DNA of 64,000 nucleotides, taken from an uncultured delta proteobacterium (lineage in GTDB: Bacteria > Desulfobacterota > Binatia > UBA9968). Shown here in pieces: positions 7,986-64,000 of this stretch. Position 1 is the stretch's first letter. Each line of letters starts with the position of its first letter. A program made the position numbers and the translations under genes. The notes below the pieces were generated by a model. That model was not told the origin of the DNA. It did not search any database and saw nothing but the letters and a program-made list of their open reading frames with translations. The DNA is taken from positions 486,360 to 550,359 of the forward strand of contig CAVUZH010000019.1 of the NCBI GenBank assembly GCA_963745835.1, given 5' to 3'.

Positions 7986-8966
7986 ATGATCCCAATGATG
8001 AATACGTACGACACGATTCGCACGAGTTTGCACTTCAATAAGTTCGTGGTCGGGGAGCTGCTTTTCGTCGAATACAAGTGCCCGATTGAACAGGAAGCCG
8101 CCGGCGTGTGGACGCCGATGGATTATTTTGTTCATGTGCTGAGCGGCAAAAAAACCTGGCGCACTACTGACGGAACTTGGATAGCAGAAAAGGGCCAGAC
8201 TTTGTTTTTCAAGAAAGGCGCCGCCGTTGTCTACCAGGATTTCAAGGACGATTTCTGCGTTTTGGTGTTTTTCGTTTCGGATAATTTCATCCGGGATGTT
8301 GTCAGAGAAGTTTCCGGTCAATTGAGCAGCCGGCGCGACGCCAACGCGCTTCAAAAAGCCGCGATTCTAATCAATGCCGATGTGACTTTGGCCGCCTATT
8401 TTCAATCCATGCTGGCCTATTTCACTGGGACGGCAAAGCCGGCCGAAACTTTGTTGACGCTCAAGCTCAAGGAATTGATCGTGAGCATACTTTTGGGGGG
8501 CAGGAATCCCGAGCTCGCCGGTTACTTTCAATCGCTGCTCAAAAGCGATGCCCCTGTGCTGTCGCAAATCATGGAGGCGAATTTTTCTTACAATCTGGCG
8601 CTGGAAGATTTCGCAAGATTATCCCATCGCAGCCTGTCGACGTTCAAACGCGACTTCCGCAAGTACTACAACCAATCCCCGGGCAAGTGGCTATTGCAAA
8701 AGCGACTGGACTATTCAGCCGTGCTGTTAAAAAATCCCGCGCTCAACGTTTCGCAAGTCGCCTTGGATTGCGGCTTCGAAGACCTCTCGCATTTCAGCCG
8801 GGCGTTCAAAGAAAAATTCGGCACCTCCCCGGCGCATTACCGTAAAGAAATTCCTGGTCGTGGCGTCTCGCGGCTTAGTGAAACAGACCTCTTGCAGGCT
8901 GCTCAAAAAGATCCAGAGGCGAGGCCCGCGAAGATCGATAAGCGGAGGCGTGCTCTTGCACGTTGA
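7986..8966 (+). CDS. AraC-family transcriptional regulator
   Basis: SLSTFKRDF and VALDCGFEDLSHFSRAFKEKFG HTHs; the last ~24 codons come from a MITE-like repeat. Confidence 0.9.
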   Translation: MIPMMNTYDTIRTSLHFNKFVVGELLFVEYKCPIEQEAAGVWTPMDYFVHVLSGKKTWRTTDGTWIAEKGQTLFFKKGAAVVYQDFKDDFCVLVFFVSDNFIRDVVREVSGQLSSRRDANALQKAAILINADVTLAAYFQSMLAYFTGTAKPAETLLTLKLKELIVSILLGGRNPELAGYFQSLLKSDAPVLSQIMEANFSYNLALEDFARLSHRSLSTFKRDFRKYYNQSPGKWLLQKRLDYSAVLLKNPALNVSQVALDCGFEDLSHFSRAFKEKFGTSPAHYRKEIPGRGVSRLSETDLLQAAQKDPEARPAKIDKRRRALAR

Positions 8967-9017
8967 CGCGCAATCGGTCGAGAGCAACGAAGCCTATGGG
9001 CTTTTTCAGCAACCTGC
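8894..9017 (+). mobile_element. MITE-like repeat, copy 1
   Basis: TIRs GCAGGCTGCTCAAAAAG / CTTTTTCAGCAACCTGC (15/17); internal gcaacgaagc shared with other copies. Confidence 0.75.
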
Positions 9018-15085: not shown

Positions 15086-15972
15086 ATGCCCTCGATTCCT
15101 TCTCTTCACCTTCTCAAGGTCTTCCTGCGGGTCGTCAATGAGCGCGGTATCTCCAAAGCCGCGGCCGCCCTCAACGTAAGGCAGCCTTCGGTTTCCATGC
15201 AGATTCGTCAACTCGAAACCACCTTCGGGGTGAAATTGCTCGATCGTCTTGGGCAAGAGATCCATCCAACCCAAGCAGGAATGATGTTACGAGAATACGC
15301 GACGAAGATCCTTGACTTGGTTGATCACTTGCACGCCGACATGGCGAATCTGCAGAACTTGAGAACCGGCCGGCTGGTAGTGGGTGGGAGTAAAGTACCA
15401 AGTGCTAGAAGATTCCTCTGGCCATTGCAACGTTTCAAAAGTTGTACGGGCAAACAGAGATTTTGATGGAAGTGGCAAGCAGCGATGCTGTGGAACAATG
15501 GGTTCTTGAGAACCACGTTGATTTTGCAATCGTCGTAGGCGATCCCGTCGCACCTCAAATCGTGGAAGAACCGTTTTATAAGGAAGATTGGTACTGTTCT
15601 ACCACCCAAACACCCCATGGAGAAAAGGAGATAGGTATCGGCTTATCAGATCTCAGAAATGCGCTTGTTTCTGCCGCACGATGGACGGGTGAAGACATAT
15701 ATTGAGAACTGCTTTGCAGAAAAAGGAATACCGCTCAATCGGAGGGTATCTCTCGGATCGATGGATTCAGTTAAGACTGCGATTGGTGCCGGATTAGGGG
15801 TATGGATCATGGCCAGATCGACAGTCGAAAGAGAAGTAAAAACCGGTTTGCTATTGACAAAAGACTATGCGATCTGGAACTGAAGTATCCGGTAAACATC
15901 AACTATCATAAGGATAAGCATTTTTCCCGGCTAGCCACGGAATTTCTTGCTGTTCTTAGAGAGTCTGTCTGA
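15086..15972 (+). pseudogene. LysR-family regulator, frameshifted, divergent from the hydrolase operon
   Basis: ISKAAAALNVRQPSVSMQIRQLE HTH; substrate-binding domain continues across frames to TGA at 15970-15972. Confidence 0.85.
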
Positions 15973-16299
15973 ACGAGAATCTCACCCCGATTACCCTACA
16001 GCTCGTTGAGAAACAGAGATCGTGAAACGATCGCGATTACTTATACCCGGGATCAGGTTATACCGGGGATCAAGCGAGGGATGAGATATGCGATCTTCAC
16101 TGGAAAATCGGCCTCGGTGATGATGCCGTTATCGATGAGCAGCTTTTGCCGCGTCGGTTTGCGGCTAAATTTGCAACCAACTCGAGACGGCATGAGCCAC
16201 GCGGCGAAACGCTATCAGGTTGCTGATCTTATAAACGGAATGGCCTCCGCGCGACCGGCTGTGGTACACCGGCGGAGACAAAACCTTAGGAGGCCAGCG

Positions 16300-17309
16300 A
16301 TGGAACATTTTGTTGGTATCGATTTACACAAGTACGTATCACAATTGGCTGTGTTGAGGGAAAGCCGATCTCCTTCACAGTTACGTTTGGCGAATGATGT
16401 TGTGACGGTGGAACGGATTTTAAAGAAACTTCCCGAGGGGAGCAAGATAGCGGTAGAGGCGATGGGTTCGTGGTGGTGGATGGTTGAGCTAGTGCAAAAG
16501 ACTGGCCACGAAGCGTTTTGGTCGCATCCAAGCAGACAAGGCGTTCGGTCAGCGCGATTGAAGTCCGATAAGGTCGATGCTTGGATATTGGCCAAGTTAC
16601 TTAAGGCCGATCTGCTTCCCGCGGTGTAGATCCCTCCTGAAAACCAACGTCATATTCGCGAGCTTCTGACCCACCGGGCGCGCCTGGTGCGTCAACGAAC
16701 CGCTGTGATCAACGAACTGCGTGCGGTTTACGCCAAGCGAAACATCGATCCTCAAGCCAAGCTTCAGCGGGCCGAACCCCAAGTCTCGGGAGCCGAGGAT
16801 CTCAGCGGCTATGCTCCGAGGATTGTGGGAGAAGATGTGGAGCTTTTGGGGTTTGTCAATGGGCAGATTGGAGGACTGGACAAGGAGTTGATGAAGATCG
16901 CTCTTGAAGATGGCTCGGCTAAGCGGCTGATGACGATCCCGGGGGTGGGAGCGGTGAGTGCGGTGGCGATGAGCTGCTGGATTGGCGAGATTGCTCGATT
17001 TTCTAATGCGAAAAAGTTGGCCAGCTACTTTGGGTAGGCGCCGCGGGTGCGCCAGAGCGCCGACACCGAACGCCATGGACATATCACCAAAGAAGGCGAT
17101 CGCATGGTGCGCTCTCTGGTGATCCAAGCCGCCCTGGTGTATACGCGAAGGGGTAAAGGCCTGAGCGTAGCATTATTTGGGGTGCTTAAAAGAAGAGGCA
17201 AGCCGATTGACCGGGTGGCGGCGGCCAACAAACTGTTGGGCGTGATTTTTCATATGCTCAAAGAATGCATCGACTATCAGGAATCCTCAGGCGTAGCGAC
17301 GCACAGTGA
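16300..17309 (+). pseudogene. IS110 DEDD recombinase/transposase, inactivated
   Basis: AGGAGG RBS; GIDLHK, AVEA, KSDKVDA, LMTIPGVG, RF.NAKKLASYFG, RQS, GHITKEG; in-frame TAG at 16627-16629 and 17035-17037 plus small deletions. Confidence 0.9.
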
Positions 17310-17435
17310 GGCCGTACTTGTTCATGGTCGTAAGACCGAGTTGCTGATTGGGCAGCTGTGCCTCTCCAGAGGGAGAACCGCCGGATTTAAGATATGCGCT
17401 TTTAAAGGGCGCGAAGAGATGAGTGGGTCGCTACC
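17301..17435 (+). ncRNA. Predicted bridge RNA / seekRNA guide region (target loop and donor loop)
   Basis: CTTGTTCA-hairpin-GTTGCTGA matches both strands of the target; TAAGAT(-)A-hairpin-AGAGATGA matches both strands of the circle junction; RNA boundaries uncertain. Confidence 0.8.
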
Positions 17436-17613
17436 CATACGTTGATCAGCCCGGCGATCAGAGCCGAAAAGGGGAATACCGGGAGTCATATTAAACTGAG
17501 ATAGTGCGTTATAAGCGAAATACGGAGGTCTTTTTTTGAGAAATCATTGCAAAACAAAATCAAGCTGTAACCCGCTTGACTGAGCCGTTCCGTTTAGAGA
17601 TGAAAAAGCCTTT

Positions 17614-17755
17614 GCGGGTTGCTCAAAAACCAAAGACGGGACGCGCTACGAACCGTGATCGTTTCCCGTGAAAATCCACACGAGCATGACACGCTTCAGG
17701 ATCCGATCTAGTGGGGCGACGCAACGAAGCTAATCGATGTTTTTCAGCGGCCCGT
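17614..17755 (+). mobile_element. MITE-like repeat, copy 2
   Basis: GCGGGTTGCTCAAAAAC ... gcaacgaagc ... GTTTTTCAGCGGCCCGT; abuts the stop codon of the convergent gene. Confidence 0.7.
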
Positions 17756-18177
17756 TAGGCGCCTGATCGGAGACTGCCATAAAGGCGCTCGGGGGTAATG
17801 AGAACCAGATTTCTCTCTTCCTCACGCATCTGCCTGGCGAATTCCTCGTCCGTTCCTTTGGGGGCGCGGCCCATGGCCGTGTAGAGCTCCTTCAGCCGCT
17901 TGATATGCGCTGGCGTGTCTTGCCACGGCTCGATGGAGGTCGGGCCCTCGACGGTGACATAGCGCCGCGTGTCGAGCTTGATCACTGTGATCGTCGCCCG
18001 GCCCGTTCTCTGAATGTTCTTGATTTTTACCGTCCATCCGCGCGATGCAAACCCGACCTTACCATCCAATACGGCGGTCGAGACGACGGTCGACTGCGCA
18101 CGGCCGTTGGGCATGACGCTGATCGCGACGCCGGTGTGATTTTCTTGCAATAAGGGGAGCGCTTCTTTCCATTCCAT
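17755..18177 (-). CDS. PPOX/pyridoxamine 5'-phosphate oxidase-like protein (possibly F420-dependent)
   Basis: PNGRAQSTVV, KIKNIQR, RYVTVEG, R.LVLITPER; GGAGG RBS. Confidence 0.75.
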   Translation of the reverse strand: MEWKEALPLLQENHTGVAISVMPNGRAQSTVVSTAVLDGKVGFASRGWTVKIKNIQRTGRATITVIKLDTRRYVTVEGPTSIEPWQDTPAHIKRLKELYTAMGRAPKGTDEEFARQMREEERNLVLITPERLYGSLRSGA

Positions 18178-20139: not shown

Positions 20140-20243
20140 TTCTCAGGCGCAAGCGCGAGGCGGTCTAAGAGCGAAGTCGTACAGTTTAGTATGTTGACAA
20201 AAGCCGGAAGCGGCAAAGCTATTAGGTTTTTTCAGCAACTTGT
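20140..20243 (+). mobile_element. MITE-like repeat, degenerate copy 3
   Basis: Right end GTTTTTTCAGCAACTTGT and internal similarity to copies 1 and 4; left end eroded. Confidence 0.55.
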
Positions 20244-63756: not shown

Positions 63757-64000
63757 TCAGGCTGCTGAAAAACACCCATATGCTTCGTTGGGCTCGAGTT
63801 CCTCGCTGAGACATACAAAAAAAGTTGAACTTCGATCGTCGATACTTCGCCCGTCTTGCATCTGGGTCTTTTTGAACGGCCTCTGGACGGTCTTGAAGGT
63901 CGATTCGGCGAAGAAGTCGCGCTCTGCTTCTTCGGGTTTCGGATAGGGACTAGCCACTGCAAATACAAAGGCGGAGGCGATTTCGTCTTTGACTTGCTGT
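63757..64000 (-). CDS. 3' end of a second E1 alpha subunit, partial, extended through a MITE
   Basis: EIASAFVFAVASPYPKPEEAERDFFA is a typical E1 alpha tail; the stop TGA lies in the repeat's TIR. Confidence 0.7.
   Translation of the reverse strand, partial: QQVKDEIASAFVFAVASPYPKPEEAERDFFAESTFKTVQRPFKKTQMQDGRSIDDRSSTFFVCLSEELEPNEAYGCFSAA
63758..63883 (-). mobile_element. MITE-like repeat, copy 4
   Basis: Reverse complement GAGGCCGTTCAAAAAGACCCAGATGCAAG...CAACGAAGCATATGGGTGTTTTTCAGCAGCCTG aligns to copy 1. Confidence 0.75.

What the first reader, a model, noticed from the sequence alone, without database searches (positions are those of the whole stretch)
17301..17435. Readable two-loop guide RNA (bridge/seek RNA) downstream of an IS110 recombinase
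Seen: two loops share one layout, [bottom-strand guide]-T-hairpin-GA-[top-strand guide ending TGA]-NT-GGG. Loop 1 is CTTGTTCA (17317-24), hairpin GGTC-GTAA-GACC, then GTTGCTGA (17340-47), closed by GCACAG/CTGTGC. These match the empty target GTTGC-TGA-AAAAG at 8/8 on the top strand and 7/8 on the bottom strand. Loop 2 is TAAGAT-A (17388-94), a GCGCTTT/AGGGCGC hairpin, then AGAGATGA (17415-22). These match the element's circle junction AGAGA-TGA-TCTTA at 8/8 on top, with one C missing on the bottom. Established: IS110/IS1111 DEDD recombinases use ncRNAs that base-pair with target and donor DNA, and IS1111-type elements carry them downstream of the gene. Inference: this is a programmable RNA-guided recombinase ortholog with a 3-nt shared TGA junction and a new specificity.
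Basis: partly seen in the sequence, partly recalled or inferred. Interest (0 to 1): 0.92.

Follow-up and report, generated by a model that had tools for sequence, protein, structure and literature searches.

The report
Guide RNA of a decayed IS1111 element
This stretch encodes the two-loop guide RNA (bridge or seek RNA) of a small jumping gene of the IS1111 type, a known kind of RNA-guided mobile element; the copy in this window is broken, and an intact twin lies elsewhere in the same genome.

Summary
Window 16226-17602 is an IS1111-group (IS110-family) insertion sequence. Positions 17293-17434 fold into a two-loop RNA whose loop segments match the target and the element's joined ends.

The window copy is decayed. 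Its transposase gene has two in-frame TAG stops and seven deletions, and the RNA has three lesions.

In homologous elements from other genomes and metagenomes, the target guides covary with the flanks:
- Left guide: 18 classes, 81.7 of 90 positions matched against a null of 26.9.
- Right guide: 18 classes, 93.5 of 108 against 39.6.
- No permutation out of 20,000 reached either observed value.

The secondary structure is also supported: 97.5% of cells are paired, against 37-41% in slid controls, and 14 pairs show compensatory changes.

Two points are corrected or added. The shared core is TG, not TGA. The target is the terminal repeat of an abundant ~135-bp repeat in this genome.

Donor-loop covariation is weak, because the element ends are nearly invariant.

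Verdict: a real feature, and a new member of a known kind.

The parts
16216..16225 (+). Left half of the target (CAGGTTGC) plus core TG (16224-25).
   Evidence: The only left-flank stretch shared with the second copy. It matches the loop-1 3' guide.
16226..17602 (+). The insertion sequence, 1377 bp counting one TG. This is a decayed copy.
   Evidence: 96% identical to C22:70270-71678. The ends were defined by comparing two copies and 50-odd homologous loci.
16232..16244 (+). Left subterminal inverted repeat, TAAACGGAATGGC.
   Evidence: Inverted repeat I2: 13 nt, 92% complementary to 17584-17596.
16300..17309 (+). Transposase pseudogene (DEDD plus Tnp domains). It has TAG stops at 16627-29 and 17035-37, and six of this copy's seven deletions fall inside the gene. 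The stop codon of the intact frame is TGA at 17307-09.
   Evidence: The intact twin is 338 aa with PF01548 + PF02371 and NF033542 at 246 bits.
17293..17434 (+). Guide RNA (bridge / long seek RNA), 142 nt. Its first 17 nt overlap the end of the transposase gene.
   Evidence: Structure counted on 33 sequences: 38 pairs, 97.5% paired, 14 pairs with changes on both sides, 0 of 500 shuffles as high.
17293..17300 (+). Outer stem P1, 5' strand (GTAGCGAC). It pairs with 17427-17434.
   Evidence: Helix 1: 4 of 8 pairs have compensatory changes. Also inverted repeat I5.
17301..17361 (+). Target-binding arm. It contains stems 17301-07/17355-61 and 17310-14/17349-53, an internal loop, and hairpin 17325-38. 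G17311 breaks a conserved C-G pair.
   Evidence: Helices 2 and 3.
17315..17324 (+). Loop-1 5' guide (TACTTGTTCA). It is complementary to the top strand of core plus right target half. G17320 is a lesion; T is found in the intact copy.
17340..17346 (+). Loop-1 3' guide (GTTGC plus TG). It has the same sequence as the top strand of the left target half plus core, so it is complementary to the bottom strand.
17363..17376 (+). Middle hairpin P3 (TCTCC / GGAGA).
   Evidence: Helix 4: 5 of 5 pairs have compensatory changes.
17381..17426 (+). Donor-binding arm. It contains a 3-bp closing stem 17381-83/17424-26 (invariant), an internal loop, and hairpin 17395-17413.
   Evidence: Helices 5 and 6.
17388..17394 (+). 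Loop-2 5' guide (TAAGAT-A). It is complementary to core plus the left end, TGATCTTA. One C is deleted in this copy.
   Evidence: (intact copy reads TAAGATCA).
17415..17421 (+). Loop-2 3' guide (AGAGATG), identical in sequence to the right end plus core.
   Evidence: Invariant in the RNA alignment apart from L098 (AAAGATG), and the right end AGAGATG is invariant too.
17576..17602 (+). Right end. It holds a -35-like TTGACT (17576-81), a 17-nt spacer and then GATG, which becomes GATGAT only when joined to the left end.
   Evidence: TTGAC[AT] is present in 46 of 51 loci, with a 17-nt spacer in 44 of them. The promoter role is inferred.
17584..17596 (+). Right subterminal inverted repeat.
17603..17610 (+). 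Right half of the target (AAAAAGCC).
   Evidence: Shared with the second copy only up to here.
9001..9014 (-). Unoccupied exact target GGTTGCTGAAAAAG in the same window. It forms one end of a repeat unit, 8897-9014.

Best explanation
Window 16226-17602 is a decayed copy of an IS1111-group insertion sequence of the IS110 family of RNA-guided DEDD/serine recombinases. Positions 17293-17434 encode its guide RNA, called bridge RNA by Durrant 2024 and long seekRNA by Siddiquee 2024.

The RNA is a clamp: an 8-bp outer stem holds three arms.
- Arm 1, the target-binding loop: the 5' segment pairs with the top strand of TG plus the right target half, and the 3' segment pairs with the bottom strand of the left target half plus TG.
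- Arm 2 is a plain hairpin.
- Arm 3, the donor-binding loop, uses the same layout to read the circle junction, that is the right end AGAGA-TG-ATCTTA left end.

The proposed cycle is as follows:
1. The element excises as a circle.
2. The joined ends create a promoter (TTGACT, 17 nt, GATG+AT) that drives the transposase gene and, on the same transcript, the RNA.
3. The protein-RNA complex synapses the circle junction with the site CAGGYTGC-TG-AAAAAG.
4. Strands are exchanged at the TG core.

The target is the terminal inverted repeat of an abundant ~135-bp repeat of this genome.

What is shown here: the anatomy, the guide-to-flank match and its covariation, the RNA fold, the repeat target, and the decay of this copy. 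What is inferred from the family: that the molecule is an RNA, that it binds the protein, the circle, the promoter, and the chemistry.
For: Protein:
- The intact twin has PF01548 + PF02371 and scores 246 bits on NF033542, 'IS110 family RNA-guided transposase', against a cut-off of 140.
- It aligns to the IS621 transposase 8wt6 at E 4.9e-14, with its Ser254 opposite the Ser of IS621's ESG.

Element:
- 13-nt subterminal inverted repeats.
- Two copies sit in the same 18-bp site in the same orientation.

Guides:
- The intact copy matches the target at 8/8 and 8/8, and the joined ends at 8/8 and 8/8.
- Left guide, 18 classes: 81.7 of 90 positions match the cognate flank, against a null of 26.9 +/- 5.8 (0 of 20,000 permutations).
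- Right guide, 18 classes: 93.5 of 108, against 39.6 +/- 6.5 (0 of 20,000).
- Near-identical elements differ by a single base in both guide and flank. Examples are the window GTTGC against L008 GCTGC, and L012 TGAAA against L013 TGAAG.

Fold:
- 97.5% of cells are paired, against 37-41% in slid controls.
- 14 pairs change on both sides, against 2-5 in slid controls.

Order of the guides: the top-strand-complement segment lies 5', as reported for IS1111 seekRNAs.

Target:
- GGYTGCTGAAAAAG with up to 1 mismatch occurs 161 times in the genome, against 12 for the control pattern, in pairs about 107 nt apart on opposite strands.
- The joined flanks match 4 uninterrupted repeat loci.

Promoter: the -35 hexamer is conserved in 46 of 51 loci. 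Siddiquee 2024 reports no promoter other than the junction promoter.
Against:
- No Rfam family matches at E <= 1.
- No sigma-70-like promoter is found on the + strand in the integrated state.
- Donor-loop evidence is weaker. The 3' guide and the right end are both invariant, so no covariation test is possible. For the 5' guide only positions 6-8 vary, matching 17.5 of 39 against a null of 11.4 +/- 2.0 (46 of 20,000 permutations as high).
- Not every insertion fits its guide. 6 of 27 unique left combinations have 2 or fewer contiguous matches beyond TG. 11 of 32 unique right combinations have fewer than 5, the window copy among them.
- Related elements share guides and targets by descent, so the permutation figures overstate the number of independent events.
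- The MFE fold of the window RNA alone is only moderately better than shuffles (z = -2.15).
Confidence: 0.93

Rival explanations
1. The RNA guides target choice only. Loop 2 is a structural or protein-binding module, and the ends are recognised by the transposase through the subterminal inverted repeats, not by base pairing.
For: The loop-2 3' segment and the right end never vary, and 5'-segment covariation is weak. Siddiquee 2024 found that a 70-100-nt RNA carrying only the target matches was sufficient for ISEc11, and left the role of the long form open. IS1111 elements have long subterminal repeats that could serve as protein sites.
Against: Loop 2 repeats the layout of loop 1. In the intact copy it matches both sides of the joined ends at 8/8. 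Positions 6-7 of the left end covary with the guide in several classes: TT in the window, TC in L009, CT in L061, AC in L067. Durrant 2024 reports donor-complementary loops in IS1111 examples.
Confidence: 0.12
2. The folded guide acts as single-stranded DNA of the element itself, as in IS200/IS605, and not as RNA.
For: Sequence covariation cannot tell RNA from single-stranded DNA. No transcript was seen here.
Against: Related IS1111 and IS110 transposases co-purify with RNA that is RNase-sensitive and DNase-resistant and comes from this very region. The fold uses many G-U pairs, for example the invariant G-U at columns 31/77 and 120/163, which are favoured in RNA.
Confidence: 0.02
3. The matches are chance, or the region is an ordinary terminator or attenuator of the transposase gene.
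For: The single-sequence fold is only z = -2.15, and there is no Rfam hit.
Against: Guide-flank covariation across 18 classes, structural covariation, and perfect guides in the intact copy.
Confidence: 0.01

Closest known systems
IS1111-group elements with seekRNA: ISEc11, ISPa11, ISKpn4, ISPst6 (Siddiquee et al. 2024, PMC11187229; sections 6, 8, 9, 13, 14 read).
   Same: - Transposase of about 340 aa.
- Subterminal inverted repeats.
- Long non-coding region downstream of the gene.
- An RNA from that region carrying one segment complementary to the top strand 5' of one complementary to the bottom strand.
- Matches that overlap at the insertion point.
- A repeat (REP) as target, as for ISPa11.
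- Natural reprogramming among relatives.
- A promoter formed only by the joined ends.
   Different: - A different target, the end of a ~135-bp repeat of this genome, and a TG core.
- The catalytic-finger motif reads SA here, where the paper lists SG, TG or occasionally TA. Among the 120 listed homologs it is SA in 82 and SG in 25.
- No sequence comparison with those elements was possible, because no reference sequences were available in the tools.
- Nothing here has been tested at the bench.
IS621 / IS622 bridge RNA systems of the IS110 group (Durrant 2024 PMC11208160, passages; Hiraizumi 2024 PMC11208158, passages).
   Same: - One RNA with a target-binding loop and a donor-binding loop.
- Each loop reads both strands around a 2-nt core.
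- DEDD plus Ser active site. The Ser aligns with IS621's and the DEDD residues sit in invariant columns.
   Different: - The RNA lies in the right end, downstream of the gene, not the left end.
- The order of the strand matches within a loop is reversed.
- The core is TG, not CT.
- The subterminal repeats are long.
- Protein similarity is only remote (E 4.9e-14).
- Handshake bases could not be demonstrated here. The two bases after the loop-2 3' guide match the first right-flank base in 9 of 19 classes, against 5.2 expected.
REP-targeting IS110-family elements ISPpu9 and ISPpu10 of Pseudomonas putida (PMC12288879 and bioRxiv 10.64898/2026.03.19.712850; search listing and abstracts only).
   Same: Insertion into one position of a repeated extragenic palindromic element present in many copies.
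   Different: A different host and a different repeat. Details of those RNAs were not read.

Membership tests
IS110 family RNA-guided transposase | N-terminal DEDD (RuvC-like) domain plus C-terminal Tnp domain. | tested here: met
   Tested on the intact twin L002:1591-2604: PF01548 at 4.9e-18 and PF02371 at 5e-24; NF033542 at 246 bits against a cut-off of 140. The window copy has the same domains but two in-frame stops.
IS110 family RNA-guided transposase | Catalytic D, E, D, D and the serine nucleophile. | tested here: met
   D8, E53, D91, D94 and S254 lie in invariant columns of 15 homologs. S254 aligns with the Ser of ESG in IS621. The IS621 residue numbers come from the Hiraizumi passages.
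IS110 family RNA-guided transposase | Site- and orientation-specific insertion. | tested here: met
   Two genomic copies sit in the same 18-bp motif in the same orientation. The same holds in metagenome loci L019-L036.
IS1111 group | Subterminal inverted repeats of 7-17 bp. | tested here: met
   13 nt, 12 of 13 complementary, 6 and 5 nt inside the TG cores. The 7-17 bp range comes from Durrant 2024.
IS1111 group | Long non-coding region and guide RNA downstream of the transposase gene. | tested here: met
   Left non-coding end 16226-16299 (74 nt) and right end 17310-17602 (293 nt), with the RNA at 17293-17434.
IS1111 group | Transposase of 330-350 aa with the GL-P----S(t)G motif. | tested here: inconclusive
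   338 aa. The motif reads GLAPRVRQSA, so SA stands where SG or TG is expected. Relatives have SA (82) or SG (25) of 120.
IS1111 group | Placement among IS1111 transposases in a tree. | not tested
   No IS1111 reference sequences were available from the tools. Only IS621 and ISCro4, both IS110 group, are in the PDB search.
Bridge RNA / seekRNA | A conserved fold with internal loops presenting the guides. | tested here: met
   6 helices, 97.5% of cells paired, 14 pairs with compensatory changes, slid controls at 37-41%.
Bridge RNA / seekRNA | Loop segments complementary to both strands of the target, varying with the target. | tested here: met
   0 of 20,000 permutations as high on either side. 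Single-base co-changes are seen.
Bridge RNA / seekRNA | Loop segments complementary to both sides of the joined element ends. | tested here: inconclusive
   Identity is 8/8 and 8/8 in the intact copy. Covariation is possible at only 3 positions and is weak (46 of 20,000).
Bridge RNA / seekRNA | The RNA is made and bound by the transposase. | not testable with these tools
Bridge RNA / seekRNA | Changing the guides changes the insertion site. | not testable with these tools
   This is a bench experiment. Natural variants behave as if it holds.

The most novel reading that the evidence does not exclude
This clade may carry regulatory layers not yet described for bridge or seek RNAs.

1. An outer clamp stem is built partly from the last codons of the transposase gene. 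This would tie RNA folding to translation termination.
2. A conserved (T)GATC lies 5-6 nt after the clamp. It copies the top strand of the left end and could pair with the loop-2 5' guide as a built-in donor mimic.
3. Two ~490-500-bp internal pieces of the transposase gene sit exactly between the two halves of the target motif. They may be footprints of RNA-guided recombination at pseudo-ends inside the element.

If these hold, the family would give a natural view of self-inhibition and of off-site recombination by a bridge recombinase.
Probability: 0.1. Interest if true: 0.55.

Novelty: new member of a known kind. Interest (0 to 1): 0.3.

Why it matters
RNA-guided recombinases of the IS110/IS1111 family are being developed as tools for inserting large pieces of DNA. 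This finding adds one well-delimited IS1111-type family:
- a 338-aa protein and a 142-nt RNA;
- a TG core;
- at least 18 natural guide classes with their cognate sites, taken from soil and sediment metagenomes.

That set is a ready natural record of which guide positions are read: 5 nt plus TG on the left, and 6-9 nt plus core on the right. It also shows how much mismatch is tolerated.

For the genome itself, it explains one pseudogene and shows that an abundant ~135-bp repeat serves as a landing pad. It does not reveal a new mechanism.

Tried and rejected
- Rfam scan of 15900-17900 at E <= 1: no family matched. This says only that no curated family matches.
- RNAalifold on the first alignment proposed a small hairpin, TGGGT/ACCCA, in place of the outer stem. 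I rejected it as the main fold. The outer stem has 4 of 8 pairs with compensatory changes and 96.9% of its cells paired, while the GGG/CCC of the small hairpin never varies.
- The 3-nt core TGA was rejected in favour of TG.
- Handshake reading of the two bases after the loop-2 3' guide: 9 of 19 against 5.2 expected at position 1 (383 of 20,000 permutations as high), and nothing at position 2. Too weak to claim.
- Promoter scan of the integrated element: no + strand site. The junction promoter was read by eye from the two ends and not scanned, because a joined sequence may not be typed.
- My first regexes for the loop segments failed and were rewritten.
- A genome-wide motif search with one mismatch gave mostly spurious hits. 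Only the two known copies carry the scaffold in context.
- The 40-nt block at 17498-17537, matched elsewhere in the genome, belongs there to a different repeated element. Its role was not resolved.
- ISfinder could not be consulted, so I cannot say whether this element already has a name.
- Supplementary files of the papers were closed. The seekRNA folds and target logos of Siddiquee 2024 and the IS1111 bridge RNA models of Durrant 2024 (Supplementary Table 5) could bear on how close this RNA is to described ones.

Full report
**What is in the window.** It lies in the right-hand non-coding part of a 1377-bp insertion sequence, 16226-17602. The left junction is CAGGTTGC-TG-ATCTTA (16216-16231) and the right junction is AGAGA-TG-AAAAAG (17596-17608).

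- The gene starting at ATG 16300 translates as an IS110-family transposase.
- It is interrupted by TAG at 16627-29 and at 17035-37.

**A second, intact copy.** The genome holding the window (7.28 Mb, 25 contigs) has one other full-length copy, C22:70270-71678, at 96% identity. It also has two ~490-500-bp internal fragments. Aligned with the C22 copy, the window copy has:

- both stop codons replaced by sense codons in C22 (TGG and TTG);
- seven deletions totalling 8 nt;
- a T-to-G change in the first loop, CTTGTTCA against CTTTTTCA;
- a deleted C in the second loop, TAAGAT-A against TAAGATCA.

A third RNA lesion, G17311, breaks a C-G pair that is kept in 31 of the 33 aligned sequences.

The C22 gene encodes 338 aa.

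- It carries PF01548 and PF02371.
- It scores 246 bits on NF033542, 'IS110 family RNA-guided transposase', against a cut-off of 140.
- Its nearest solved structures are the IS621 transposase (8wt6, E 4.9e-14) and ISCro4.
- D8, E53, D91, D94 and S254 lie in invariant columns of 15 homologs.
- S254 aligns with the serine of IS621's ESG.

**Group assignment.** The features below are those that two papers give for the IS1111 group. The papers are Siddiquee 2024 (sections 6, 8, 9, 13 and 14 read) and Durrant 2024 (passages).

- The ends carry 13-nt subterminal inverted repeats, 16232-44 and 17584-96, with 12 of 13 positions complementary.
- The left non-coding end is 74 nt and the right one 293 nt.
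- The protein is 338 aa.

One small departure: the catalytic-finger motif reads GLAPRVRQSA, with SA where the paper lists SG, TG or occasionally TA. Among the 120 listed homologs it is SA in 82, SG in 25, and absent in 13. I could not place the protein in a tree with IS1111 references.

**Relatives.**

- A protein search gave 2524 hits, graded from 98% down to 53% identity among the 120 listed.
- From a 15-sequence alignment I fetched 11 loci from genome contigs. By their record titles these come from Acidobacteriota, Nitrospira and deltaproteobacterial bins.
- I also fetched 80 loci from metagenome contigs.
- Of the 99 sequences then held, 71 carry the scaffold motif TTGGGCAGC downstream of the gene.
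- 66 had the whole RNA region, giving 51 distinct sequences.
- The scaffold is strongly conserved.

**Do the guides follow the flanks?** I located junctions independently of the guides, using the conserved end motifs. This gave 48 loci with a left junction and 50 with a right junction. They reduce to 27 and 32 unique guide/flank combinations.

| Side | Unique combinations | Well matched | Intermediate | Poorly matched |
|---|---|---|---|---|
| Left | 27 | 17 with at least 5 contiguous matches beyond TG | 4 with 3-4 | 6 with 2 or fewer |
| Right | 32 | 21 with at least 5 | - | 11 with fewer than 5, including the window copy itself |

Taken by guide class:

| Guide | Classes | Positions matching the cognate flank | Null from reassigned flanks | Permutations as high |
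|---|---|---|---|---|
| Left, 5 nt | 18 | 81.7 of 90 | 26.9 +/- 5.8 | 0 of 20,000 |
| Right, 6 nt | 18 | 93.5 of 108 | 39.6 +/- 6.5 | 0 of 20,000 |

Shared descent inflates these figures. The pairs of near-identical elements that differ by one base in both guide and flank are not explained that way. Examples are GTTGC in the window against GCTGC in L008, and TGAAA in L012 against TGAAG in L013.

The misfits (L021, L026, L039, L063, L067, L079 and others) look like insertions into near-cognate sites or later drift.

**The core.** The only bases shared by the left flank's end and the right end in all elements are TG. In 17 of 32 unique right junctions the base after TG is T, G or C. The A that follows TG in the first loop is an invariant scaffold base. 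In this window the target happens to have an A there, which made TGA look shared.

**The donor loop.**

- Its 3' segment AGAGATG equals the right end plus core in every locus. The one exception is L098, which reads AAAGATG. Both the segment and the end are invariant, so this is agreement without a covariation test.
- Its 5' segment ends in GATCA, the complement of the invariant TGATC of the left end.
- The next three positions vary. They match in 17.5 of 39 cases, against 11.4 +/- 2.0 expected, with 46 of 20,000 permutations as high.
- I therefore regard donor reading as likely but less firmly shown than target reading.

**The fold.** I wrote a structure with six helices on a 33-sequence alignment.

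| Measure | Structure | Slid controls |
|---|---|---|
| Cells forming a standard pair (of 1250) | 97.5% | 37-41% |
| Pairs of 38 with changes on both sides | 14 | 2-5 |
| Shuffles reaching the observed value | 0 of 500 | - |

The outer stem is 17293-17300 with 17427-17434. It starts inside the last codons of the gene, whose intact-frame stop codon is TGA at 17307-09. The MFE of the window sequence alone is only z = -2.15. No Rfam family matches.

**Layout compared with the literature.** In both loops the 5' segment is complementary to the top strand on the right of the core. The 3' segment is complementary to the bottom strand on the left of the core. This is the order Siddiquee 2024 reports for IS1111 seekRNAs, and the reverse of the IS110 type (abstract and section 9). 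The 142-nt size is close to their 'long seekRNA' of 145-170 nt.

**The target.**

- GGYTGCTGAAAAAG with at most one mismatch occurs 161 times in the genome, against 12 for the reversed control pattern.
- The sites come in pairs about 107 nt apart on opposite strands. They are the terminal inverted repeats of a ~135-bp repeat.
- The window itself holds an unoccupied exact site at 9001-9014 on the minus strand.
- The two flanks of the window element, joined in a script, match four uninterrupted repeat loci across the junction.
- Metagenome relatives with the same guides sit in the same repeat.
- Targeting of repeated extragenic elements is known for this family, for example ISPa11 and ISPpu9 and ISPpu10 (abstracts).

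**Expression.**

- No sigma-70-like promoter is found on the + strand of the integrated element.
- The right end carries TTGACT at 17576-81, then 17 nt, then GATG at the very end.
- Joined to the left end, this reads GATGAT. In the integrated state it reads GATGAA.
- The -35 hexamer TTGAC[AT] is present in 46 of 51 loci with a recognisable right end, and the spacer is 17 nt in 44 of them.
- This fits the junction promoter that Siddiquee 2024 describes, from which gene and RNA would be co-transcribed.
- It is an inference here.

**Verdict.** This is a bridge/seek RNA of an IS1111-group element. The target guides are demonstrably reprogrammed in nature, and the donor loop is plausible. The three corrections are:

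- this copy is dead;
- the core is TG;
- the 'new specificity' is an abundant local repeat.

It is a new member of a known kind and of modest interest.

Noticed in passing
window 8897-9014; also 17603-~17750, 20227-20240, 63760-63773; genome-wide: An abundant ~135-bp repeat with terminal inverted repeats CAGGCTGCTGAAAAAG / CTTTTTGAGCAGCCTG. It often has an extra outer half-site 10 nt away. The genome holds 161 half-sites with at most 1 mismatch. It looks like a MITE or REP-like element and is the landing site of the insertion sequence.
   Followed up: partly
L003 (G000:C22:64763-65263) and L004 (G000:C3:491052-491541, minus strand): Two internal pieces of the transposase gene, about 490-500 bp each, lack both element ends and the RNA. 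Each still sits between the two halves of the target motif (GGTTGC... and ...TGAAAAAC). In L004 the right boundary falls at an internal CTCTGG-TG-ATCC that resembles the joined ends. These are possibly footprints of recombination at pseudo-ends.
   Followed up: partly
window 17498-17537; L005, L006, L007: A ~30-40-nt block (…GTGCGTTATAAGCGAAATACGG… followed by a T run) is conserved in the right non-coding region of the whole family. It also occurs, at 88% identity, near the end of a different repeated element present at least three times in this genome. Its function is unknown.
   Followed up: partly
window 17443-17447 and the same place in relatives: A conserved (T)GATC lies 5-6 nt after the outer stem of the RNA in most family members. 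It has the sequence of the left end's top strand and could pair with the loop-2 5' guide. No covariation is seen beyond the five bases.
   Followed up: partly
window 15086-15883: A LysR-type regulator, with an N-terminal helix-turn-helix-like sequence, appears split over three overlapping reading frames: 15086-15466, 15442-15705 and 15659-15883. It is probably a frameshifted pseudogene just upstream of the element. The name is from recall; no family search was run.
   Followed up: no
loci L047, L049, L059: Near-identical elements carry right guides that differ at one base (…TTAAAAC against …TAAAAAC). Two of them sit at each other's best site and not their own, a natural case of one-mismatch tolerance.
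   Followed up: no
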